Below, in pieces: positions 51,376-59,404 of a stretch of 64,000 bases of DNA. Position numbers and translations under genes: made by a program. Position 1 is the first letter of the stretch. Each line of letters opens with the position of its first letter. The notes under the pieces were generated by a model that worked only from the letters and a program-made list of their open reading frames with translations, did not search any database and had not been told where the DNA came from. The DNA comes from an uncultured Verrucomicrobiota bacterium. GTDB lineage: Bacteria; Verrucomicrobiota; Verrucomicrobiia; Limisphaerales; UBA8199. The stretch covers positions 8,940-72,939 of the forward strand of contig CAIQQM010000246.1 in the NCBI GenBank assembly GCA_903873945.1, in the 5' to 3' direction.

Positions 51376-54198
51376 TTAGCCAGCCTGGGTGACCGCCTGG
51401 ACACAGCGTCCGCAGATGGTCGGATGCTCCGGGTGCGAGCCGACGTCAGTTTCCCAATGCCAGCAGCGCTCACATTTTCGGCCGTCGGCTTTCTTCACCA
51501 CAGCGAGCGGACTGGCTGTGCCGGCCGCGCGTGGCTGGGTGGCGAATTCAAGCTGCGAGACGTTCAACAGCTCGCGCAGGTGTTCCGAGTATTGTTTCTC
51601 GACATCGAGCGAATTTCCGGTTTGTCCCGACAACTGAACTTTGGCCTCGAGAGCCTTGCCGATCAGTTTGTTTTGCCGTGCCTTTTCAAGTTCGGGCAGC
51701 ACGGCCTCGCGCGTTTTGAAGAGCAGCTTCCAATCCTCCTCTTCCTTCGCGCTGGAGTTGAACGGCGCTGGCTGCCAGGCCAATTCGTGCACCGAAGCGG
51801 TGGTTTTGCCTGGCACAAATTCCCACGCCTCATCGGCTGTGAACGCCAGCAATGGCGCAAGTATCTTGCAGAGGCCGGCGACCATCCGGTGCAATGCCGT
51901 CTGTGTGGAGCGGCGGCGCGGAGAATTTGCCGCATCAGTGTAAAGACGGTCTTTCACCACGTCATGGTAGATGGCCGACAACTCGACCGCGACGAACTGG
52001 CTTATTCTTTGGTAAACAACGTGGAATTCGCAGTCGTCGTAAGCTTTGATGACGTCCTGTTCCAGTTTCGAGAACTCGCCGAGAATCCAGCGGTCCAACC
52101 CGGTCAGTTTGCTGTCTGGCACGGCATCCTTCGCCGGGTCGAAATCATAGAGGTTCGAGAGCTGGTACCGCAGCGCATTGCGGAGAACGCGGTAAGTCTC
52201 GGCAACTTTATTGATCCGCTCTTCGCTCACGATGATGTCATTGCGAAAATCCTGCGAGGCGACCCAGAGCCGCAGGATGTCCGCGCCATGTTTCTTGATG
52301 TACGCCTCGGAAGTCTGCGGCTTTTCATAGCCGCCCTGGCTTTGTTTGCTCTTCGAGATCTTTTCGCGGTCGGCATCCACCATGAAACCGTGCGTTAGCA
52401 CGGTCTTGAACGGCGCCGCGCCATTGCCGGCGAGCGAGAGCAGCAGCGAAGACTGGAACCAGCCACGGTGCTGGTCGCTGCCTTCCAAATACATGTCGCA
52501 CTGGAACGGCTTGTCTTTGCCGCGCAGTTCCGGCCGCGTCGCGATCACGGCGCGCGAGGACGAGCCCGAGTCAATCCAGACATCGAGCGTGTCGTTGGAT
52601 TTGGTCGCCGCTTCGGGTCCGGTCCAGTTTTTCGGTTTGAGCGCGGCCCACAATTCGGCGGCGGTCTTCTCAAACCAGGCATTGGAGCCATGCTTCTCGA
52701 TCAAATCGGCCGCGTTGCGCACGATCTGGGCGTCAAGGAGCGGGTTTCCCTGAGCGTCATAGAAAGCGGGGATGGGCACCCCCCAGGTGCGCTGTCGCGA
52801 AATGCACCAGTCCGGCCGGCCTTTCACGGCGGCTTCGATGCGGCTCTTGCCCCAGTCCGGGATCCAGTCCACACGGTTGATTTCTTCGAGCGCCCGCTCG
52901 CGGAATTTCACGTGGTCAATCTTGACGAACCATTGGTCCATCGCCCGGAAGATGATGGGCGTCTTGCTGCGCCAGCAATGCGGGTAGCTATGCGAGTAGT
53001 TCTCCAGGTGGAGCAATGTTTTGCGGGCGCGCAGTTCGTCCAACACCGCTTCGTTCGCCTCGCTCTTCCCGTGCTTTTCGAGTATGGCCTTGCCCAGCAT
53101 TCCGGCGGGCATTTGCTCGCTGATCGGCAAATCGCTCGTGTGTGTGAATCGGCCATCGTCGTCCACCGGCGAATAAATCGGCAAACCGTGCCTTGAGCCG
53201 AGTTGGTAATCTTCCAAGCCATGCCCTGGCGCAATGTGCACGAAGCCGGTGCCGGTGGCATTGTCCACAAACGAATCCCCGGCGAAAAGCCTGCCGGTCC
53301 GGTTGCAGAACGGATGTTGATACGTGAGTTGGCTGAGATGCCCTCCGTCCAGATTGTGGAGGATCTGGTAACCCTGCCAGCCGCACTTTTCCGCCACCGC
53401 CGGAAGCAGCGAAGCCGAGACGATGAATTTCTCATCGCCCGCCTGCGCGAGCGCGTAGCTGAACGTCGAGTTGAAGGCCACCGCCAGGTTCGCGGGCAGC
53501 GTCCATGGCGTTGTGGTCCAGATAACGAGGAAGACCCCCGGTTGCCCGATGACGGGGAATTTTACATGAATGCTCTGGCTGACGTGGTCTTTGTATTCGA
53601 CCTCCGCCTCGGCCAGCGCCGTCCGGCAGGGGATGCTCCAATAGACGGGTTTCTTGCCGCGATAAACAAAGCCCTGCTCCACAATGTCGGCGAACAGGCG
53701 CAACTCCGCCGCTTCGTATTCCCGGTCGAGCGTGAGGTAAGGATTGTCCCAATCACCCAGCACGCCCAGGCGCTTGAATTGCCCGCGCTGGATGTCGATG
53801 TATTTGCGCGCGTAAACCTCGCACGCCTTGCGGATGGTCGCCGCGTCAGAAGCGGTATCGCCGGCTTTGCGCATGTCCTGCGTGACCTTGAACTCGATGG
53901 GCAGGCCGTGGCAATCCCAGCCCGGGATGTAGGGGGCGCTGAAACCGCGCAGGGTCTTGTACTTGACGATGATGTCCTTGAGAATCTTGTTCAGCGCCGT
54001 GCCGACGTGGACATCGCCGTTGGCGAAGGGTGGGCCGTCATGAAGCACGAATTTTTTCGCGCCGGCCCGTTGGGTTTGGAGACGTTCGTAGAGTTTGGCG
54101 GTCTCCCATTGCTTCAAGCGCTCCGGCTCCCGGGCAACCAGGTCGGCTTTCATCGGGAAATCGGTTCGCGGCAGATTTAGAGTGTTTTTGTAGTCCAT
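51376..54198 (-). CDS. ileS: isoleucine--tRNA ligase
   Basis: HIGH-region PPFANGDVHVGTALNKILKD, the class I editing insertion, KMSKS-region KISKSK, and a C-terminal zinc ribbon CERCWHW...CGRC. Confidence 0.95.
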   Translation of the reverse strand: MDYKNTLNLPRTDFPMKADLVAREPERLKQWETAKLYERLQTQRAGAKKFVLHDGPPFANGDVHVGTALNKILKDIIVKYKTLRGFSAPYIPGWDCHGLPIEFKVTQDMRKAGDTASDAATIRKACEVYARKYIDIQRGQFKRLGVLGDWDNPYLTLDREYEAAELRLFADIVEQGFVYRGKKPVYWSIPCRTALAEAEVEYKDHVSQSIHVKFPVIGQPGVFLVIWTTTPWTLPANLAVAFNSTFSYALAQAGDEKFIVSASLLPAVAEKCGWQGYQILHNLDGGHLSQLTYQHPFCNRTGRLFAGDSFVDNATGTGFVHIAPGHGLEDYQLGSRHGLPIYSPVDDDGRFTHTSDLPISEQMPAGMLGKAILEKHGKSEANEAVLDELRARKTLLHLENYSHSYPHCWRSKTPIIFRAMDQWFVKIDHVKFRERALEEINRVDWIPDWGKSRIEAAVKGRPDWCISRQRTWGVPIPAFYDAQGNPLLDAQIVRNAADLIEKHGSNAWFEKTAAELWAALKPKNWTGPEAATKSNDTLDVWIDSGSSSRAVIATRPELRGKDKPFQCDMYLEGSDQHRGWFQSSLLLSLAGNGAAPFKTVLTHGFMVDADREKISKSKQSQGGYEKPQTSEAYIKKHGADILRLWVASQDFRNDIIVSEERINKVAETYRVLRNALRYQLSNLYDFDPAKDAVPDSKLTGLDRWILGEFSKLEQDVIKAYDDCEFHVVYQRISQFVAVELSAIYHDVVKDRLYTDAANSPRRRSTQTALHRMVAGLCKILAPLLAFTADEAWEFVPGKTTASVHELAWQPAPFNSSAKEEEDWKLLFKTREAVLPELEKARQNKLIGKALEAKVQLSGQTGNSLDVEKQYSEHLRELLNVSQLEFATQPRAAGTASPLAVVKKADGRKCERCWHWETDVGSHPEHPTICGRCVQAVTQAG

Positions 54199-54262
54199 TC
54201 GCGCTTCAAAGAAGCCGGAAGCTAACAGTGGCGCGGGGGAGTGTCAACGAACGCCCCGACCC

Positions 54263-54283
54263 GGTAGTGTCTTAATTTGGATT
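54263..54283 (+). repeat. left terminal inverted repeat
   Basis: GGTAGTGTCTTAATTTGGATT. Confidence 0.85.
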
Positions 54284-54415
54284 TCTTTCTTCAAGGCTCA
54301 TCAAAATGTGAATAACCATCCCAATAGTTTGTGAATAGACGCCAATATGTTTTTTCGCCCATTCATTGACGCGTTGAGGCGCGCCCCACAGAATCCTCGA
54401 AACAAATGCGCTAAT

Positions 54416-55372
54416 ATGGCGACGCTATTAAACGACAAGGAGATTGCCGGACTGGTGGGAAGGGTGATTGTCAACGGGGATGCATCGTGTGTAAGGACAA
54501 ATTCATATGTTCTGAGGCTTGGTCCAGCAGGCGAATTCCTGAATTCAGGCAAGGAATTTACACTTGGGGGATCAAAAAAGGGGATCAGGATTCAACCGGG
54601 CCATTCGGTTGCTCTCACAGCATTTGAAACCATTGATTTTAGGCGAGAGACCGTTCGGCAGATTTACCCAGACCATGACCTACATGCTTTGGTTAGCCCA
54701 TCGACAGATTTATCCAGAGAAGGACTGGTTGCCCCAACAACTCAGGTAGATGTGGGGTATCATGGAACCTTAAATTGGACCCTGACCAACACTTCTAATG
54801 AGGTGCGGAGATTTTTAATGCATGAAAAGATATTCCGCATCACATTTTTCAAACTCGCACCAGGAGAAACGCCAGTCGGTACGTACAAAGGGGATTATCA
54901 GGGGAGAACCGGATATGTCCGATCTGAGCGGAAAGGGCCATCGGTGGGAATGCGCGAAAATGAATGGGAAGATTCAAGGATTGATGGCGGGCCAGAGGCG
55001 TTGCTGGAAAACCTCATAAAATCCGGCTATCCTTGGAATCTTTTGGGCGAAAGACTCCAAATAATCGACGGCCAGTTTCAGACCGTTACGAATGAATACG
55101 GGGAAATCAAGAAAGCGATGGGAGACATGAAACAGGACATGCCAATTACCATTAGCAACTCTTTCAATCAGCAAATTGAGTCGGTCAGTTCCAAATGGAC
55201 TGTCAAGGCTCTTGCAGGGCTTGGTGTGCTAATTGGGTTAATCCTGACAACAGTAACAAGCGACACAGCCCTAAACTTTCTGAAAAAACAAGGGTATTGG
55301 GTCGGGGTGCTTATCATGGTGGGTGCCGTCGTATTTTTCTTACTTTTGGGATCGAGACGGATTAAGAAGTAG
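54416..55372 (+). CDS. dUTPase/dCTP-deaminase-superfamily domain protein with C-terminal double transmembrane tail
   Basis: Start reset to the ATG at 54416 (MATLLNDKEI). The N-terminal ~190 aa follow the Dcd pattern: NSYVLRLG, IRIQPGHSVALTAFETIDF, SPSTDLSREGLV, QVDVGYHGTLNWTLTNTSN, IFRITFFKL. C-terminal TM segments: ALAGLGVLIGLILTTV and YWVGVLIMVGAVVFFLLLG. Confidence 0.6.
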   Translation: MATLLNDKEIAGLVGRVIVNGDASCVRTNSYVLRLGPAGEFLNSGKEFTLGGSKKGIRIQPGHSVALTAFETIDFRRETVRQIYPDHDLHALVSPSTDLSREGLVAPTTQVDVGYHGTLNWTLTNTSNEVRRFLMHEKIFRITFFKLAPGETPVGTYKGDYQGRTGYVRSERKGPSVGMRENEWEDSRIDGGPEALLENLIKSGYPWNLLGERLQIIDGQFQTVTNEYGEIKKAMGDMKQDMPITISNSFNQQIESVSSKWTVKALAGLGVLIGLILTTVTSDTALNFLKKQGYWVGVLIMVGAVVFFLLLGSRRIKK

Positions 55373-55379
55373 AAGTTTG

Positions 55380-55400
55380 GGTAGTGTGTTAATTTGGATT
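55380..55400 (+). repeat. internal third copy of the terminal repeat (left-end orientation)
   Basis: GGTAGTGTGTTAATTTGGATT is identical to the left end apart from one C-to-G change. It starts 8 nt after the stop codon at 55370-55372. Confidence 0.8.
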
Positions 55401-55470
55401 CGGAGGTTCTTTCAGCCAGCGTTCAAAAATTTGTTTTTTTCCAAAACTAACGGTCGCAAGTATTTTCATT

Positions 55471-55776
55471 TTATTCCTTTTTTCTGGACTCTTTGATTTG
55501 ATAAGCAACGCCAACCTTCACGGCGCTTTTTGCAGAGTCAACCGGAGGCAGTTCTAATATCGTAATGAACTCCTCCGGCTCACCATACGTCCAGCCGTAG
55601 CAGCGTTTAGCCTTTGGGTGTCCTGTTAGGTCAAAAACCTCAACATCGCCCCGCCAAGCGGTCTTTCCGCGAAACACTTCATGCACCGGCACAGTCTCGC
55701 GGTAAACCGCTCCGCATTTGTGCAAATGCTGAATCGCTGTCTGGAGCCTCGCTAGATAGTCCTGTTTATTCTCCAC
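55471..55776 (-). CDS. small conserved-looking hypothetical protein (start uncertain)
   Basis: ORF ..DYLARLQTAIQHLHKCGAVYRETVPVHEVFRGKTAWRGDVEVFDLTGHPKAKRCYGWTYGEPEEFITILELPPVDSAKSAVKVGVAYQIK. The ATG at 55857 would overlap the transposase 3' end by ~90 nt and give an Arg-rich, overlap-like N-terminus. A GTG at 55776 is more plausible. Confidence 0.4.
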   Translation of the reverse strand: MENKQDYLARLQTAIQHLHKCGAVYRETVPVHEVFRGKTAWRGDVEVFDLTGHPKAKRCYGWTYGEPEEFITILELPPVDSAKSAVKVGVAYQIKESRKKE

Positions 55777-56593
55777 TGCGTTCAACCAGATCCGCAACCG
55801 TCCAATGGCTGCTTTCAATGCCAGCCGCCATCGCGGGCGACATTCGCAACGCACCATGCGTTTTGCAGAAGTTGTAATACGCGAAATTCAGAGCAACCGC
55901 AGCCTCAAAGTTTTCAATCTTCTTGCTGAACGCATTGGTGAGGCGCGTGAGTCTCCGGCAGTGCATCCGCAAGGTGTGATTCTGCTTCTCAATATGGCTT
56001 GTTGTAATGCGGCTCACGTCAGGCATGCCGCAAATGATCGTGCGCTCGGTTCTGACCACTTCGGCAGGGCTGTACCTACTTGCCGCATCTTTGTTGAGAT
56101 TCGTGACTGCGTAGGTTTTTACGAGTTGAGCGTAATCGACTTCAGCGCCGAACCCGCGTTCGATTGCTTCGGGGTACGAGGAAAGGGCATCGCTTGAAAG
56201 TTGAACACGCCGCGAAAGGCGTCCGGCCAAATCCTCCATGAAGGCTTGGGCGTGATACAGGTCGCGTTTGCCGACGATGAAAGACGGAATCAACTTGGTG
56301 TCGGCGTCCAAAGCGATGAACGTCCAGACATCGCCATACGCATCAGAGCGGCGTGCGTTCTTTTGCTTGGCCCCAATGAACCCCCAAATCTCGTCAACCT
56401 GGATTTGCTTGCAGGTCAGATCGCGCATCTTGGAATCCATGATCTTCTTGCAGGCTGTGCCAACGCGAAGCCCCAAGCTCATAATCGTGTTGCGGTTCAC
56501 GTTGGTAATTCGCTCAATGGCACGTATAGAAGCGCCTTCCGCCAGCATCGAAATCACCGCCACTTTCTTTTCGATCTTCAGGATATTTGCCAT
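55766..56593 (-). CDS. IS1-family-like DDE transposase
   Basis: N-terminal HTH (VAVISMLAEGASIRAIERITNVNRNTI), QVDEIWGFIGAKQKN, WTFIALDADTKLI, SSDALSSYPEAI, TSHIEKQNHTLRMHCRRLTRLTNAFSKKIENFEAAVALNFAYYNFCKTH. Confidence 0.75.
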   Translation of the reverse strand: MANILKIEKKVAVISMLAEGASIRAIERITNVNRNTIMSLGLRVGTACKKIMDSKMRDLTCKQIQVDEIWGFIGAKQKNARRSDAYGDVWTFIALDADTKLIPSFIVGKRDLYHAQAFMEDLAGRLSRRVQLSSDALSSYPEAIERGFGAEVDYAQLVKTYAVTNLNKDAASRYSPAEVVRTERTIICGMPDVSRITTSHIEKQNHTLRMHCRRLTRLTNAFSKKIENFEAAVALNFAYYNFCKTHGALRMSPAMAAGIESSHWTVADLVERSGE

Positions 56594-56685
56594 ATATGGA
56601 ATTTACCAAAGTCCCGTTTTTAAGCAAGCACTATTTTTATGTATTTTTGTGCTTGCAAGTAAGTATGCTTGTGATAAGTTCAGGC

Positions 56686-57705
56686 ATGCTTACAGACGAT
56701 TCGATTCAATCAATGGGAGGAAAAGCCCGCGCCGAGGCTTTATCTGACGACCAAAGGAAAGACATAGCTCGCAAGGCCGCTGAGGCGAGATGGTCAATGC
56801 CAAAAGTAGGGTGGGAAGGGGAAATGACCATTGGGCCAGTCTCGATTAAATGCGGCGTCATCCCTTCCAGGGAAGATGGCGAGAAGCCGTTAAGGGTCAT
56901 ATCGGAGACGGCGTTTATGACGGCTCTTGGGATGTATCGCAGTGGAGCCCTTTCTGTCAGGCGTGAGGTTTCAGAGACCGGTGCACAAACACCCCTTTCA
57001 TTGGCATACAAGAATCTCAAGCCATTTATTATAAAGCACTTAGGAGACGTGCACTTTCAGCCCACAAAGGTCATCTTCGCCAATGGTTCTGTTGGGCACG
57101 GATTGGATGCCATACTAATTCCCAAAATTTGCGAAATCTGGATGGATGCACGGAAGGCAGGTGTTTTGGGGAAGAGGCAAGAAGCGATAGCCGATATGGC
57201 AGAAATCATTCTTCGTGGGCTAGCTCGCGTGGGGATAATCGCCCTCGTTGATGAGGCTACTGGTTATCAGGCTTTCCGAGATCGACTTGAGCTTCAAAAA
57301 ATCCTCGAAAAATATGTCAATGATGAATGGGCAAAATGGACAAAACGTTTTCCTGATGAATTCTATCGCCACCTGTTTAGGCTCAAGAGTCGGGTCTATC
57401 CGCCCACAGCCGGAAGGAACAAACCATCGTACGTAGGACATTGGACAAATGACGTTGTTTATTCGAGATTGGCCCCAGGAATTCTAAAGAAATTAAGGGA
57501 GCTAAATCCGAGAGTGGGAAACAATCGGCTCCGCAGGCATCATCAGTATTTGACTGAGGATATTGGCGTTCCTGAATTAGAGCAGTTCTTATCAAATATC
57601 ATCTTCTTGATGAGAACGTGCATATCATGGAATGAATTCAAAATCAGGCTTGATGCGGCCGCACCGAAATTTGGGGATACCCGCAGCCTTGCTCTTGATG
57701 TATAA
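56686..57705 (+). CDS. P63C-domain (phage-type) protein
   Basis: GGKARAEALSDDQRKDIARKAAEARW opening. P63C-like core: IIALVDEATGYQAFRDR..LQKILEKYV..WAKWTKRFPDEFYRHLFRL..PSYVGHWTNDVVYSRLAPGILKKLRELNP..HHQYLTEDIGVPELEQFLSNIIFLMR. Start is either 56686 or 56713. Confidence 0.65.
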   Translation: MLTDDSIQSMGGKARAEALSDDQRKDIARKAAEARWSMPKVGWEGEMTIGPVSIKCGVIPSREDGEKPLRVISETAFMTALGMYRSGALSVRREVSETGAQTPLSLAYKNLKPFIIKHLGDVHFQPTKVIFANGSVGHGLDAILIPKICEIWMDARKAGVLGKRQEAIADMAEIILRGLARVGIIALVDEATGYQAFRDRLELQKILEKYVNDEWAKWTKRFPDEFYRHLFRLKSRVYPPTAGRNKPSYVGHWTNDVVYSRLAPGILKKLRELNPRVGNNRLRRHHQYLTEDIGVPELEQFLSNIIFLMRTCISWNEFKIRLDAAAPKFGDTRSLALDV

Positions 57706-57710
57706 AAAAC

Positions 57711-57779
57711 GGGGATGGCTCGGTGCTGCGCCAGGCTCTACACCCAAGGCTGCATGGGGTTCGATTCCCCACATCTCCA
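57711..57779 (+). ncRNA. tRNA-Ala-like element (acceptor stem + T arm intact, central part does not fold)
   Basis: GGGGATG (57711-57717) pairs 7/7 with CATCTCC (57772-57778), including G3-U70, with discriminator A. T arm TGGGG-TTCGATT-CCCCA. The 37 nt between do not form D or anticodon arms, and no CCA is encoded. Confidence 0.3.
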
Positions 57780-58031
57780 AGCCATCACCCGAAGTACTTT
57801 ACCAGATTTTCGGGTTTTCAAATAGTTTATTTTAGAATTGCCTTCTTGCGCCAATCGCCAATACTCAATATGTTAATTCTCAATTCAATCGAACCGTGAG
57901 AACCATTCCGCTATTGTGTGCCGTTACGCTGGGGGCTACTGTCTTGTGTATTCCTGAAATGAGACAGTATTCGTTCCAACGCCACCGCGACGGCCTGCAA
58001 CGACTTGAAAGTTAAAGGAAAGGGGAAATCT

Positions 58032-58670
58032 ATGAACGGGCACGATCTATGCGATGTCAATTCTTTGAAATCAAACATCATGGCCGACGTAAAGCAAGTT
58101 ACCATCGGAGATGCCCAATCCTGGTACGGGCGTGCGGATGGTATTGTCCGGGCATCAGCACTCCGGGACATAATGGGCGTCATGATCCAGCGCAATGTCA
58201 AAACTGAATTTGAAAATGATTCTTATTTCGACGCCTTGATGTTTAGTGAAATGATGTTTGATCGATCCAACCAGTCTATCTCCCTCTTCACCGGATCGGG
58301 TTGTGAGGCGTTTTTGCAAACGCTACACCGATCTTTTTATTCAGCTCTCGACCGATTGAAAAATAGCGGCGGAAGCGTGCGGATGATTACCACCGCTGAA
58401 CACGTATCCGAATTCCTAATGGGATTGCAAAAGCGGTATCCCGAGACTCTTTCCGTTGCGCCTGCGCGAGCCAATGAAGTCATCGGACATTTTTTTATTT
58501 GCGATTCACGAATGGCCCGAGTTGAACAACCTCATGGGCCATTAACACCCGAAACGCCTGTGGACGCAATAAAGGCAAAAGTCTTTTTCAATCATCCTGC
58601 GGTAGCGCAGATGCTTGAAATCCGTTTTAACGCTTTCTGGAGAGCTGTTCAGCCTGTGCCTAAAGTGTAA
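58032..58670 (+). CDS. hypothetical soluble protein (cargo gene)
   Basis: The ATG at 58032 is preceded by AAAGGAAAGGGG. No motif was recognised with confidence. There is a weak PLD-like flavour only (ISLFTGSG...GGSVRMITT...GHFFICDSRMARVEQPH), without an HxK..D motif. Confidence 0.45.
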   Translation: MNGHDLCDVNSLKSNIMADVKQVTIGDAQSWYGRADGIVRASALRDIMGVMIQRNVKTEFENDSYFDALMFSEMMFDRSNQSISLFTGSGCEAFLQTLHRSFYSALDRLKNSGGSVRMITTAEHVSEFLMGLQKRYPETLSVAPARANEVIGHFFICDSRMARVEQPHGPLTPETPVDAIKAKVFFNHPAVAQMLEIRFNAFWRAVQPVPKV

Positions 58671-58678
58671 AAGGGCAC

Positions 58679-59245
58679 ATGCCGCTTTATTCACTCATTG
58701 CCCTCACGCTGAGTTTGTTTGGGGCGACGTACACTGCAATCTCAGCATTACGGAATCATTTTGACAGGGACATCATCCAGACGGTTGACTCAATCAAAAC
58801 GCATATAGGGTCCATCAAGGGAGCCGGATCGCCTCCGGAGACATTGCAGAATGCCGAGGGAACCCGCGCCAAGATTATGTGGTGGAATTCGGTATGGAAA
58901 TGGAGTTTGGTTTTTCACATCGGCGCTTTTGGATTATTCATTTTTGTCATCGCATTTCTATGTCTTTTTGAGTGGGATGATCTCCCAATCAAAGTGGCGA
59001 AGTCGGGGCAGGATATGACTCAGGAAGCTATTCAGTATTCTGTAACTGGATTTTGGATCGTGTCTTCCATTTGTGGCAGACTAACTATTGCGGGAGCGAT
59101 GGTTGTAAATCTGTTGTGTGGGCTCTTTGCTTATGTATCTGCAGGGAAAATTAAGTCTTACGGAAAAGTTCTGTATGGCCTTGCCAAGTGTGCTGAAGAG
59201 ACTTCGGCAGCATCTCGGCTTTCGCCGCCAGGTTCTGGGAATTAA
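58679..59245 (+). CDS. hypothetical membrane protein (cargo gene, 8 nt after the previous stop)
   Basis: TM segments LYSLIALTLSLFGATYTAISAL, WSLVFHIGAFGLFIFVIAFLCLF, GFWIVSSICGRLTIAGAMVVNLLCGLFAYV. Confidence 0.5.
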   Translation: MPLYSLIALTLSLFGATYTAISALRNHFDRDIIQTVDSIKTHIGSIKGAGSPPETLQNAEGTRAKIMWWNSVWKWSLVFHIGAFGLFIFVIAFLCLFEWDDLPIKVAKSGQDMTQEAIQYSVTGFWIVSSICGRLTIAGAMVVNLLCGLFAYVSAGKIKSYGKVLYGLAKCAEETSAASRLSPPGSGN

Positions 59246-59303
59246 CGGCAACGGCATGGTTACTCACCAGCCAAGGTTTCAGGGTAACGTTCTATATAAG
59301 TCC

Positions 59304-59321
59304 CCAAATTAAGACACTACC
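59304..59321 (-). repeat. right terminal inverted repeat
   Basis: CCAAATTAAGACACTACC is the exact reverse complement of 54263-54280. Confidence 0.85.
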
Positions 59322-59404
59322 CCCGACCCTGTGTCGCGACTTTATGGAAATGAACATCCGGGTCAGGAGGGGCTGGAAGTGGGTCGCGAGGCGTTGCGCC
59401 GCGG

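What the first reader, a model, noticed from the sequence alone, without database searches (positions are those of the whole stretch)
54416..55372. Cargo 1: dCTP-deaminase/dUTPase-fold domain with the catalytic Glu position substituted, fused to a two-helix membrane tail
Seen in sequence: residues 1-190 follow the Dcd/dUTPase beta-barrel pattern (LNDKEI.., NSYVLRLG, IQPGHSVALTAFETIDF, SPSTDLSREGLV, QVDVGYHGTLNWTLTNTSN, IFRITFFKL). In my manual alignment to E. coli Dcd (IDPGWSGCIVLEFYN) the catalytic Glu aligns with Thr (VDVGYHGTLNWTLTN). The C-terminal third contains a helical stretch and two hydrophobic helices (ALAGLGVLIGLILTTV and YWVGVLIMVGAVVFFLLLG). The gene is bracketed by two same-orientation copies of the transposon end. 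Established knowledge: nucleotide-depleting enzymes (dCTP deaminases, dGTPases) act in anti-phage defence, and many abortive-infection effectors pair a sensing domain with membrane-disrupting helices. The published defensive dCTP deaminases that I recall use a different (zinc cytidine-deaminase) fold. Inference: this may be a nucleotide-sensing or modified-nucleotide-binding domain controlling a membrane effector, that is, a single-gene defence or exclusion cargo. Other possibilities are an inactive relic or a membrane-tethered dUTPase-like enzyme.
Basis: partly seen in the sequence, partly recalled or inferred. Interest (0 to 1): 0.65.

Follow-up and report, generated by a model that had tools for sequence, protein, structure and literature searches.

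The report
Mobile membrane-anchored dUTPase-fold protein
This gene encodes an uncharacterised protein that joins a nucleotide-binding domain of the dUTPase/dCTP-deaminase type to a membrane hairpin, travels between bacteria on transposon ends and prophages, and is a reasonable but untested candidate for a one-gene anti-phage or exclusion function.

Summary
ORF 54416-55372 (+) encodes a 318-aa protein. Residues 1-175 form a Dcd/dUTPase-fold domain. A conserved neck, a long helix and two C-terminal transmembrane helices follow.

The Dcd deaminase glutamate is Thr here and is absent in 148 of 149 family members. This does not show inactivation, because the closest solved relatives are archaeal Dcd-like dUTPases that also lack it. 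Other pocket and lid residues are almost invariant, so the domain is functional and not a relic. It is not a dCTP deaminase. The motif I acid and the motif II arginine are also changed, so hydrolase activity is uncertain.

The family is large, with about 1,000 clusters at 90% identity in two subfamilies. It is spread patchily over at least 12 phyla, has lower GC than its hosts, has no conserved partner gene, and is known only from uncultured bacteria.

In the window the gene lies between an extra outer IS1-like end and the canonical end of a cargo-carrying IS. The whole 5.06-kb unit has an 8-bp target duplication. Elsewhere the gene is a 1.6-kb mobile cassette, an internal IS passenger or a prophage moron.

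PADLOC, the searched literature, and the phage and plasmid collections gave nothing. A defence or exclusion role is plausible but circumstantial.

The parts
54255..54262 (.). Left copy of the 8-bp target-site duplication CCCGACCC
   Evidence: Read directly. It is identical to 59322-59329.
54263..54280 (+). Outer left terminal inverted repeat GGTAGTGTCTTAATTTGG. This is the extra end that brings the dcd-TM gene into the mobile unit.
   Evidence: 100% complementary to 59304-59321. Related ends lie upstream of the homologous gene in L001, L003, L004, L005, L007, L008 and L051.
54416..54940 (+). Residues 1-175: cytoplasmic Dcd/dUTPase-fold domain, including the C-terminal lid motif Y157-x3-YQ-x3-G-x3-S-x-R
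54941..55033 (+). Residues 176-206: conserved neck (GM..EW...GPE.L..L..SGYP)
   Evidence: Conservation (G204 and P206 nearly invariant). Model confidence is lower here, pLDDT 63-73.
55034..55198 (+). Residues 207-261: long helical stalk, variable in length across the family (23-121 residues)
   Evidence: DSSP helix 207-281. Length distribution.
55199..55261 (+). Residues 262-282: transmembrane helix 1
   Evidence: Family-averaged hydropathy. Present in 148 of 149 members.
55292..55354 (+). Residues 293-313: transmembrane helix 2, followed by the basic tail GSRRIKK (55355-55369) and the stop codon (55370-55372)
   Evidence: tail mean net charge +3.3, loop about neutral, so both the N-terminal domain and the tail face the cytoplasm.
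55380..55397 (+). Inner copy of the left end (one mismatch). This is the canonical terminus of the IS, lying just beyond the small ORF.
   Evidence: In the relatives of the transposase where an end was detected on that side, the inverted repeat lies shortly after the small ORF.
55471..55785 (-). Small conserved IS accessory ORF (about 104 aa) with no family match
   Evidence: Its homolog follows the transposase in most of the 80 related loci, and also in L004 and L008.
55766..56593 (-). IS1-family DDE transposase (275 aa)
   Evidence: Pfam DDE_Tnp_IS1, 34.1 bits against a cutoff of 24.1. NCBIfam transpos_IS1 E 9.5e-20, below its cutoff. More than 500 relatives in metagenomes.
56587..59245 (+). 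Other cargo of the canonical IS: a P63C-domain protein (56587-57705), a 221-aa ORF (58005-58670) and a 188-aa ORF with hydrophobic stretches (58679-59245)
   Evidence: phrog_2384, E 2.6e-94.
59304..59321 (-). Right terminal inverted repeat
59322..59329 (.). Right copy of the target-site duplication CCCGACCC

Best explanation
The gene encodes a mobile, stand-alone accessory protein.

Shown:
- The N-terminal domain faces the cytoplasm and has the Dcd/dUTPase fold.
- It keeps the sugar-binding and catalytic aspartate (D112), the arginine equivalent to Dcd R115 (R101), the motif II hydroxyl residue (T97) and the C-terminal lid.
- It lacks the deaminase glutamate.
- The lid runs directly into a conserved neck, a helical stalk and a transmembrane hairpin.
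- The gene moves on IS1-like ends and in prophages, has no conserved partner, and has a foreign base composition.

Inferred:
- Like other members of this fold, it assembles as a trimer.
- The head binds a deoxynucleotide-like ligand whose level changes on infection, for example dUTP or a phage-specific modified dNTP. Alternatively it binds a phage protein that targets dUTPase-fold trimers.
- Ordering of the lid on ligand binding is passed through the neck and stalk to the six membrane helices, which then perturb the membrane.
- The result is abortive infection or exclusion that protects the host and its mobile element.
For: Fold and pocket.

Family-wide near-invariance of D112, R101, T97, W121, N125, Y157, Y161, Q162, S170 and R172, with the Glu position free to vary.

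Two transmembrane helices in 148 of 149 members, with positive-inside topology.

The membrane helices conserve hydrophobicity but not sequence. This fits a membrane-perturbing or anchoring role more than a specific transport site.

No conserved neighbour in 47 loci.

Gene GC is a median of 7.6 points below its flanks, and at least 3 points below in 42 of 48 loci.

Patchy spread over at least 12 phyla at 50-55% identity.

Mobility:
- 8-bp target duplication around 54263-59321.
- L004: the gene lies inside an IS with its own 8-bp duplication.
- L001: a 1.6-kb cassette with perfect 17-nt inverted repeats and the duplication GCGGCGCG.
- L135: the gene lies between the terminase large subunit and the portal.
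- L052: a prophage-like region.
- L136: inserted between leuC-like and leuD-like genes.

Defence genes occur near some copies: CBASS cyclase plus E2, AbiEii and restriction-modification genes; a Shedu SduA_C gene and PycTM; a Schlafen/AlbA_2 ATPase as co-cargo.

Some cargo genes of the same IS family match the PADLOC single-gene candidates PDC-S13 and PDC-S05.
Against: - No PADLOC model matches the protein.
- No paper describing this architecture was found.
- Most neighbours are housekeeping genes, and defence neighbours are a minority.
- No enrichment statistic against a background was computed.
- There is no expression or phenotype data.
- Stalk length varies from 23 to 121 residues and is not clearly phased. 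This fits a passive tether at least as well as tight allosteric coupling.
- The trimer and the ligand were not tested.
- The motif I acid and the motif II arginine are altered, so the identity of the ligand is open.
Confidence: 0.38

Rival explanations
1. It is a membrane-tethered enzyme. The head is an active dUTPase-type pyrophosphatase that removes dUTP or a phage-specific non-canonical dNTP, and the hairpin only localises it. Any defence or house-cleaning effect comes from catalysis and not from membrane damage.
For: - The closest solved relatives are true dUTPases (9ln0, 8y1w, 2zdc), which also lack the Dcd glutamate.
- The motif III aspartate, the aromatic residue over the sugar and the lid are conserved.
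- An acidic residue is present either at position 32 (subfamily B) or at position 98 (subfamily A), and never at both. This could be a relocated metal ligand.
- The variable stalk length fits a tether.
Against: - The motif II arginine that contacts the phosphates in Dut (R71) and Dcd (R110) is Ser/Thr in 131 of 149 members and Arg in only 5.
- The motif I acid is Val/Ile in the window's subfamily.
- A soluble enzyme has no obvious need for a membrane hairpin, yet 148 of 149 members have one.
- The conserved neck has no counterpart in known enzymes of this fold.
Confidence: 0.25
2. It serves the mobile element or a phage and not the host. Possible roles are an addiction toxin, a regulator of transposition, or a holin-like or lysis-timing membrane protein.
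For: - Repeated linkage to IS ends in the Verrucomicrobiota clade.
- Position between terminase and portal in L135.
- The C-terminal two-helix hairpin with a charged tail resembles small membrane-active phage proteins.
Against: - None of the 80 closest relatives of the transposase carries the gene, so the IS does not need it.
- Most family members in other phyla have no transposase or phage genes nearby.
- Only one hit in 2.9 million viral contigs and none in 50,697 phage records.
- No antitoxin-like partner is conserved.
Confidence: 0.1
3. It is a membrane-associated sensor or regulator of the nucleotide pool that is unrelated to genetic conflict, for example one linking dNTP status to an envelope process.
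For: - Many copies sit among housekeeping and envelope genes.
- Ligand-pocket conservation combined with a membrane anchor.
Against: - Patchy distribution across phyla, GC below the host genome, carriage on IS elements, cassettes and prophages, and several disrupted copies are not typical of a core physiological regulator.
- There is no conserved neighbourhood.
Confidence: 0.15
4. It is an ordinary housekeeping dCTP deaminase or dUTPase, or a decayed inactive relic of one.
For: JGI annotates homologs as 'deoxycytidine triphosphate deaminase'. The fold matches.
Against: - Scores fall far below the curated cutoffs: 33.5 against 92.8 bits, and 17.4 against 27.
- The essential deaminase Glu is absent family-wide.
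- The extra 140 residues with a membrane hairpin are conserved.
- The gene is mobile and compositionally foreign.
- A relic would not keep about 60 invariant columns in 62 sequences.
Confidence: 0.03

Closest known systems
Archaeal Dcd-like dUTPases (Pyrococcus P45 9ln0/9ln3, Thermococcus pacificus 8y1w, Sulfolobus tokodaii 2zdc/2yzj)
   Same: - Best sequence and fold matches: Foldseek E 1e-11, target TM-score 0.92, and profile E 2.6e-14.
- They have no glutamate at the Dcd E138 position.
- Shared motifs: REG in motif II, VD.G[YW].G in motif III, and the Y.G.YQG lid.
   Different: - They are soluble proteins of 150-170 aa.
- They keep the motif II Arg/Lys-Ser (IRSSLAREG, LKSTLARNG) and the motif I Asp (YDLR). 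The window protein has SPSTDLSREG and SYVLR.
- The window protein adds a conserved neck, a stalk and two transmembrane helices.
Bacterial dCTP deaminase Dcd and bifunctional DCD-DUT (E. coli 1xs1, M. tuberculosis 2qxx, M. jannaschii 1ogh; TIGR02274, PF22769)
   Same: The same fold. Equivalents of Dcd R115 (R101), S111 (T97) and D128 (D112) and the C-terminal lid are present.
   Different: - The catalytic E138 is Thr and is absent in 148 of 149 members.
- R110 is lost.
- Scores are below the family cutoffs.
- The protein is membrane-anchored and mobile.
Defensive dCTP deaminases (AvcD / 'dCTPdeaminase' system)
   Same: The nucleotide-centred theme, and the 'dCTP deaminase' label in automatic annotation.
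   Different: Those proteins have an N-terminal kinase domain and a zinc-dependent cytidine-deaminase domain. That is a different fold with no membrane part. No PADLOC match was found here.
Ligand-gated transmembrane effectors of signalling defence systems (CBASS Cap14/Cap15, Pycsar PycTM, TM-containing Thoeris effectors)
   Same: The architecture logic: a cytoplasmic small-molecule-binding domain fused to a short transmembrane bundle whose sequence is poorly conserved.
   Different: - Those effectors sit next to a signal-making enzyme. Here no partner is conserved.
- The sensor fold differs.
- There is no PADLOC match.
- This comparison rests on my own knowledge and was not tested with the tools.
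IS1-family insertion sequences with passenger genes, and mobile insertion cassettes
   Same: - The terminal inverted repeats begin with GGT.
- An 8-bp duplication flanks the element.
- The transposase is a DDE_Tnp_IS1 enzyme.
- A transposase-free cassette form exists in L001.
   Different: - This IS family has a third small conserved ORF and a highly variable one-gene cargo slot.
- In the window the dcd-TM gene lies outside the canonical end and is captured by a duplicated extra end.

Membership tests
dCTP deaminase (Dcd; TIGR02274 / PF22769) | Score above the curated family cutoff | tested here: not met
   TIGR02274 scores 33.5 bits against a cutoff of 92.8. PF22769 scores 17.4 against 27.
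dCTP deaminase (Dcd; TIGR02274 / PF22769) | Catalytic glutamate (E. coli E138). PDB entries 1xs4, 2j4q and 2v9x are structures of E138A and E138D variants of this residue. | tested here: not met
   E138 aligns with T122. Thr occupies this position in 119 of 119 close members, and Glu in 1 of 30 distant ones.
dCTP deaminase (Dcd; TIGR02274 / PF22769) | Dcd/dUTPase beta-barrel fold with a C-terminal lid | tested here: met
   Foldseek probability 1.0 to 1xs1, 2qxx and 4xjc. The lid aligns with KYRNQQG.
Trimeric dUTPase (including the archaeal Dcd-like type) | Motif III aspartate (E. coli Dut D90) and the aromatic residue over the deoxyribose (Y93) | tested here: met
   D112 and Y115 align with them. 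D112 is present in 147 of 149 members, and position 115 is always Y, F or W.
Trimeric dUTPase (including the archaeal Dcd-like type) | Motif II Arg-Ser that contacts the phosphates (Dut R71-S72) | tested here: not met
   The window has S96-T97. Position 96 is T or S in 131 of 149 members and R in 5.
Trimeric dUTPase (including the archaeal Dcd-like type) | Motif I acidic residue (YDLR / LDLR) | tested here: not met
   V32 in the window; V, I or A in the close clade; E in 13 of 30 distant members.
Trimeric dUTPase (including the archaeal Dcd-like type) | Homotrimer with active sites at subunit interfaces, and dUTP hydrolysis | not testable with these tools
   Only a monomer model could be made.
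Defensive dCTP deaminase (AvcD-type) | Zinc-dependent cytidine-deaminase domain plus an N-terminal kinase domain | tested here: not met
   No such Pfam or PADLOC match was found.
Known anti-phage defence systems (PADLOC-DB 2.0) | Match to any system model | tested here: not met
   The best match is LeoBC at E 0.06, over the helical region only.
Signal-gated TM effectors (CBASS / Pycsar / Thoeris type) | An adjacent signal-synthesising enzyme in a conserved operon | tested here: not met
   No neighbour cluster is shared beyond closely related genomes in 47 loci.
Signal-gated TM effectors (CBASS / Pycsar / Thoeris type) | A cytoplasmic ligand-binding domain fused to a short transmembrane bundle | tested here: met
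   This is a resemblance in architecture only.
IS1-family transposable element carrying passenger genes | Terminal inverted repeats, a target-site duplication and a DDE_Tnp_IS1 transposase | tested here: met
   The NCBIfam transpos_IS1 score of 71 bits is below its cutoff of 100, so this is a divergent member.

The most novel reading that the evidence does not exclude
A dUTPase-fold trimer has been turned into a self-contained immune receptor. It would read out abnormal deoxynucleotides directly (dUTP, hydroxymethyl-dNTPs or other phage-made precursors). Its lid arm, which in the enzymes closes over the bound nucleotide, would transmit that event to a six-helix membrane bundle that kills or arrests the cell. 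This would be a one-protein abortive-infection system that needs no second messenger, and it would spread as IS cargo.
Probability: 0.25. Interest if true: 0.8.

Novelty: new variant of a known kind. Interest (0 to 1): 0.6.

Why it matters
If the defence reading holds, this would be a new type of single-gene system. An enzyme fold from nucleotide metabolism would serve as the sensor, which offers a direct way to detect phages that use modified DNA precursors.

The family is invisible to current defence catalogues because it occurs only in uncultured lineages.

Apart from function, the locus shows how an insertion sequence picks up a neighbouring gene by using an extra copy of one end. It also exposes an IS1-like family with a hypervariable one-gene cargo slot, which could be searched for further accessory functions.

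If instead the protein is a membrane-tethered pyrophosphatase, it would still extend the known range of the dUTPase superfamily.

Tried and rejected
- PADLOC, Pfam, NCBIfam and PHROGs on the protein gave only weak Dcd/dUTPase matches and no defence model.
- Full-text literature searches for this architecture or for PF22769 found nothing relevant. One search on ISMhu11 was swamped by unrelated papers.
- Rfam found no RNA element next to the gene, so there is no sign of an RNA antitoxin or riboswitch.
- The promoter and terminator scan gave no more sites than shuffled sequence.
- Clustering of neighbour ORFs (80 aa or longer) in 47 loci found no conserved partner. ORFs shorter than 80 aa were not examined.
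- A search for flanking inverted repeats outside the Verrucomicrobiota clade found nothing convincing.
- tblastn against GenBank phages and PLSDB plasmids gave no match. BFVD fold hits were only generic Dcd/dUTPases.
- Laying metagenome contigs on the locus showed the insertion as assembled. It did not show an empty site, so insertion polymorphism was not demonstrated.
- The first genome scan, using the divergent alignment A3, failed for lack of a conserved stretch.
- The small ORF next to the gene was considered as a possible antitoxin and rejected. It travels with the transposase and is absent from the L001 cassette.
- Frameshifted copies were considered as evidence of a fitness cost. They were not used, because several come from assemblies that may carry sequencing errors.
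Full report
**The observation**

The window holds an open frame at 54347-55372 (+). Its internal ATG at 54416 gives a 318-aa protein beginning MATLLNDKEI.

The gene lies in a 5-kb stretch of 46-52% GC, between ileS (51376-54198, minus strand) and a TPR-repeat gene. The surrounding genome is about 60% GC.

**The N-terminal domain**

Residues 1-175 are a diverged member of the Dcd/dUTPase superfamily.
- TIGR02274 gives E 3e-8, well below the curated cutoff. Pfam DCD gives E 0.005.
- phrog_1663 gives E 1.5e-8.
- PDB 2yzj gives E 1e-8, which improves to 2.6e-14 with a profile of 62 homologs.
- An AlphaFold model built on those homologs has pLDDT of about 88-97 over residues 1-170.

Foldseek ranks the archaeal Dcd-like dUTPases first: 9ln0 and 8y1w (target TM-score 0.92), then 2yzj/2zdc among them. 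The bifunctional DCD-DUT enzymes and E. coli Dcd follow.

**Active-site mapping**

I compared the family profile with E. coli Dcd and Dut, whose sequences were taken from the MG1655 record. The equivalences are:

| Window residue | Dcd | Dut |
|---|---|---|
| T122 | E138 | (Ser) |
| R101 | R115 | - |
| T97 | S111 | S72 |
| S96 | R110 | R71 |
| D112 | D128 | D90 |
| Y115 | W131 | Y93 |

Across 149 full-length members:
- The glutamate position is Thr in all 119 close members. It is T, S, G, L or another residue in the 30 distant ones, with Glu in a single case.
- D112, R101, T97, G114, G117, W121 and N125 are invariant or nearly so.
- The lid residues Y157, Y161, Q162, S170 and R172 are also invariant or nearly so.

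The nearest solved enzymes are true dUTPases with Met or Ala at that position, so the missing glutamate rules out deamination and not function.

The real departures from those dUTPases are the motif II arginine (Ser/Thr here) and the motif I acid (Val/Ile in this subfamily).

The family splits into two subfamilies.
- Subfamily A, which includes the window protein, has Val/Ile at position 32 and Asp at position 98.
- Subfamily B has Glu at 32 and Thr at 98.

No sequence has an acid at both positions: 127 have it only at 98, 13 only at 32, and 9 at neither. This may be a relocated carboxylate. The pattern is confounded by phylogeny, so I treat it as a lead only.

**The C-terminal half**

After the lid comes a strongly conserved neck (GM..EW...GPE.L..L..SGYPW). 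The model then predicts one long helix (207-281) followed by a second helix (283-312).

Two hydrophobic segments of about 20 residues are present in 148 of 149 members, including those only 25-30% identical.
- The start-to-start spacing is narrow (31-32 residues), which leaves a loop of about 12 residues.
- The loop is almost uncharged.
- The tail after the second segment is short and carries a mean net charge of +3.3.

By the positive-inside rule, both the N-terminal domain and the tail are cytoplasmic. The stalk between neck and membrane varies from 23 to 121 residues.

The tail is a defining feature of the family.

**The mobile element**

The 18-nt sequence GGTAGTGTCTTAATTTGG occurs three times, against 0.01 expected by chance:
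- 54263 (+)
- 55380 (+, one mismatch)
- 59304-59321 (inverted)

The octamer CCCGACCC abuts the outer pair on both sides. The whole 5.06-kb unit therefore transposed as one piece.

Between the inner end and the right end lie:
- a small ORF (minus strand)
- an IS1-family DDE transposase (minus strand; Pfam score above cutoff)
- a P63C-domain gene
- two further ORFs

I fetched the 80 closest relatives of the transposase from metagenomes.
- The canonical element is usually 2.4-2.9 kb. Its order is end, one variable cargo gene, transposase, small ORF, end.
- Where an end was detected on that side, it lies shortly after the small ORF. This is exactly the position of the window's inner copy.
- None of the 80 carries the dcd-TM gene.

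In the window, then, the gene lies outside the canonical IS and is captured by an extra outer end.

Related arrangements exist elsewhere.
- L004 (66% identical protein): the gene sits inside the element, next to the small ORF. A Schlafen/AlbA_2 ATPase occupies the other slot, an 8-bp duplication TTCGCGCT flanks the element, and the whole lies near a relaxase and an integrase.
- L001: the gene alone is flanked by perfect 17-nt inverted repeats and the duplication GCGGCGCG. This is a 1.6-kb transposase-free cassette.
- Solo left ends lie upstream of the gene in L003, L005, L007, L008 and L051.

Contigs from separate metagenome runs span the gene / inner end / small ORF junction, so the arrangement is not an assembly artefact. 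No empty site was seen.

**Distribution and context**

- Subfamily A has at least 423 clusters at 90% identity, and subfamily B at least 569.
- At 50% identity, only 142 representative clusters are reached from the window protein.
- A scan of one genome per species found 43 loci. They come from Verrucomicrobiota, Bacteroidota, Alpha- and Gammaproteobacteria, Planctomycetota, Methylomirabilota, Acidobacteriota, Desulfobacterota, Calditrichota, Sumerlaeota, Hydrogenedentota, Binatia and Lachnospiraceae. All are metagenome-assembled genomes, mostly at 50-55% identity.
- The gene's GC is a median of 7.6 points below its flanks.
- No neighbouring gene is conserved beyond close relatives.

Neighbours are mostly housekeeping genes, with occasional defence genes:
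- a CBASS cyclase with E2, AbiEii, a type IIG enzyme and HsdR-like proteins within two genes
- a Shedu SduA_C gene and a PycTM gene within 5 kb in L138

Other notable positions:
- L136: the gene splits a leuC/leuD-like pair.
- L052: the gene lies in a prophage-like region.
- The single IMG/VR hit has it between the terminase large subunit and the portal, a typical position for a prophage accessory gene (moron).

There is no match in GenBank phages or in PLSDB plasmids.

**Interpretation**

What is firm:
- The protein is a conserved, functional, cytoplasm-facing nucleotide-pocket domain of the dUTPase type.
- It is tethered to the membrane by a hairpin.
- It is encoded by a horizontally mobile stand-alone gene.
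- It is not a dCTP deaminase, not a housekeeping gene and not a relic.

What it does is inferred. I favour a ligand-triggered membrane effector used in abortive infection or exclusion, at about 0.38, for three reasons:
- The membrane hairpin is universal but poorly conserved in sequence.
- The lid, which in the enzymes orders over the bound nucleotide, is wired directly into a conserved neck and stalk.
- The gene behaves like accessory conflict cargo.

The main rival, at about 0.25, is a membrane-tethered pyrophosphatase acting on dUTP or on modified precursors. The lost motif II arginine, the lost motif I acid and the unexplained membrane anchor count against it. The close kinship to real dUTPases and the variable stalk count for it.

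Element-selfish or phage-lysis roles (0.10) and a physiological nucleotide sensor (0.15) remain possible.

**Comparison with known systems**

- The defensive dCTP deaminases have a kinase domain plus a zinc cytidine-deaminase architecture and are unrelated.
- No PADLOC model matches.
- No paper on this architecture was found.

The case is best described as a new variant within the Dcd/dUTPase superfamily. Its architecture recalls ligand-gated transmembrane effectors, but without their signalling partner.

Noticed in passing
window 57711-57780 (+): Partial Rfam tmRNA match (26 bits, below the gathering score of 47; E 1e-7). It spans the model's two ends in only 70 nt, just after the P63C ORF and inside the IS. 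ARAGORN finds no tRNA or tmRNA here. It may be an attachment-site relic of an integrative element captured as cargo.
   Followed up: no
L055-L134 (relatives of the transposase at window 55766-56593): This IS1-like family has a hypervariable one-gene cargo slot between one end and the transposase. Of 39 non-redundant candidate cargo ORFs, only a minority match any Pfam family at E 0.001 (at most 9). Matches include P63C (2), Bro-N, Schlafen/AlbA_2, DUF3800, DUF5343 and ferritin, and the PADLOC candidates PDC-S13 (E 2e-82), PDC-S05 and PDC-M34A. Several of the ORFs start with hydrophobic, membrane-like stretches.
   Followed up: partly
window 55471-55785 (-): A conserved ORF of about 104 aa overlaps the 3' end of the transposase gene. 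Its homolog follows the transposase in most of the 80 related elements. It matches no Pfam, NCBIfam, PHROG or PADLOC family. It behaves as a third core gene of the IS.
   Followed up: partly
window 58005-58670 and 58679-59245 (+): Two adjacent cargo ORFs of unknown function lie between the P63C gene and the right end. The 221-aa ORF has only a weak DUF7436 match. The 188-aa ORF has hydrophobic stretches in its sequence. They could be a separate two-gene module.
   Followed up: no
L003, L007, L008, L051, L052 (upstream of the dcd-TM gene): A conserved palindrome of the form TTGGACAGC-n-TTGTCCAA, followed by repeated AATGTTAA(T/C)AA-like motifs, lies between the IS end and the gene. The palindrome is absent from the window copy, which keeps only the TGTGAATA-type repeats (54315-54345). 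It may be an operator or a transposase-binding region.
   Followed up: no
L042, L043, L045, L047, L048, L030: Some genomic copies are disrupted. L042, L045, L047 and L048 have frameshifts. L043 has a 1.6-kb insertion splitting the gene. L030 has a second, fragmentary copy 4 kb upstream of an intact one. Several may come from assemblies with sequencing errors, so the frameshifts may not be real.
   Followed up: partly
L136 9001-9999: A subfamily B copy, together with two small ORFs, sits between the large and small subunit genes of an aconitase-family (leuC/leuD-like) pair and upstream of an isopropylmalate-dehydrogenase-like gene. This is an insertion into an operon.
   Followed up: no
L135 8506-9531: The only viral-contig homolog lies between the terminase large subunit (gpA) and a lambda-family portal gene, in the same orientation. 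This is a typical position for a prophage accessory gene (moron).
   Followed up: partly
window 54348 and 55673 (runs X2, X3): Metagenome contigs match the window from these points onward but continue into unrelated sequence upstream. Other copies or arrangements of the gene and of the IS probably exist in the same communities.
   Followed up: no
L001 11253-11498 (+): The 1.6-kb cassette carries, downstream of the dcd-TM gene, an 81-aa ORF with a Cys/His-rich zinc-ribbon-like motif (CHTCN...CPHC). It has no counterpart in the window.
   Followed up: no
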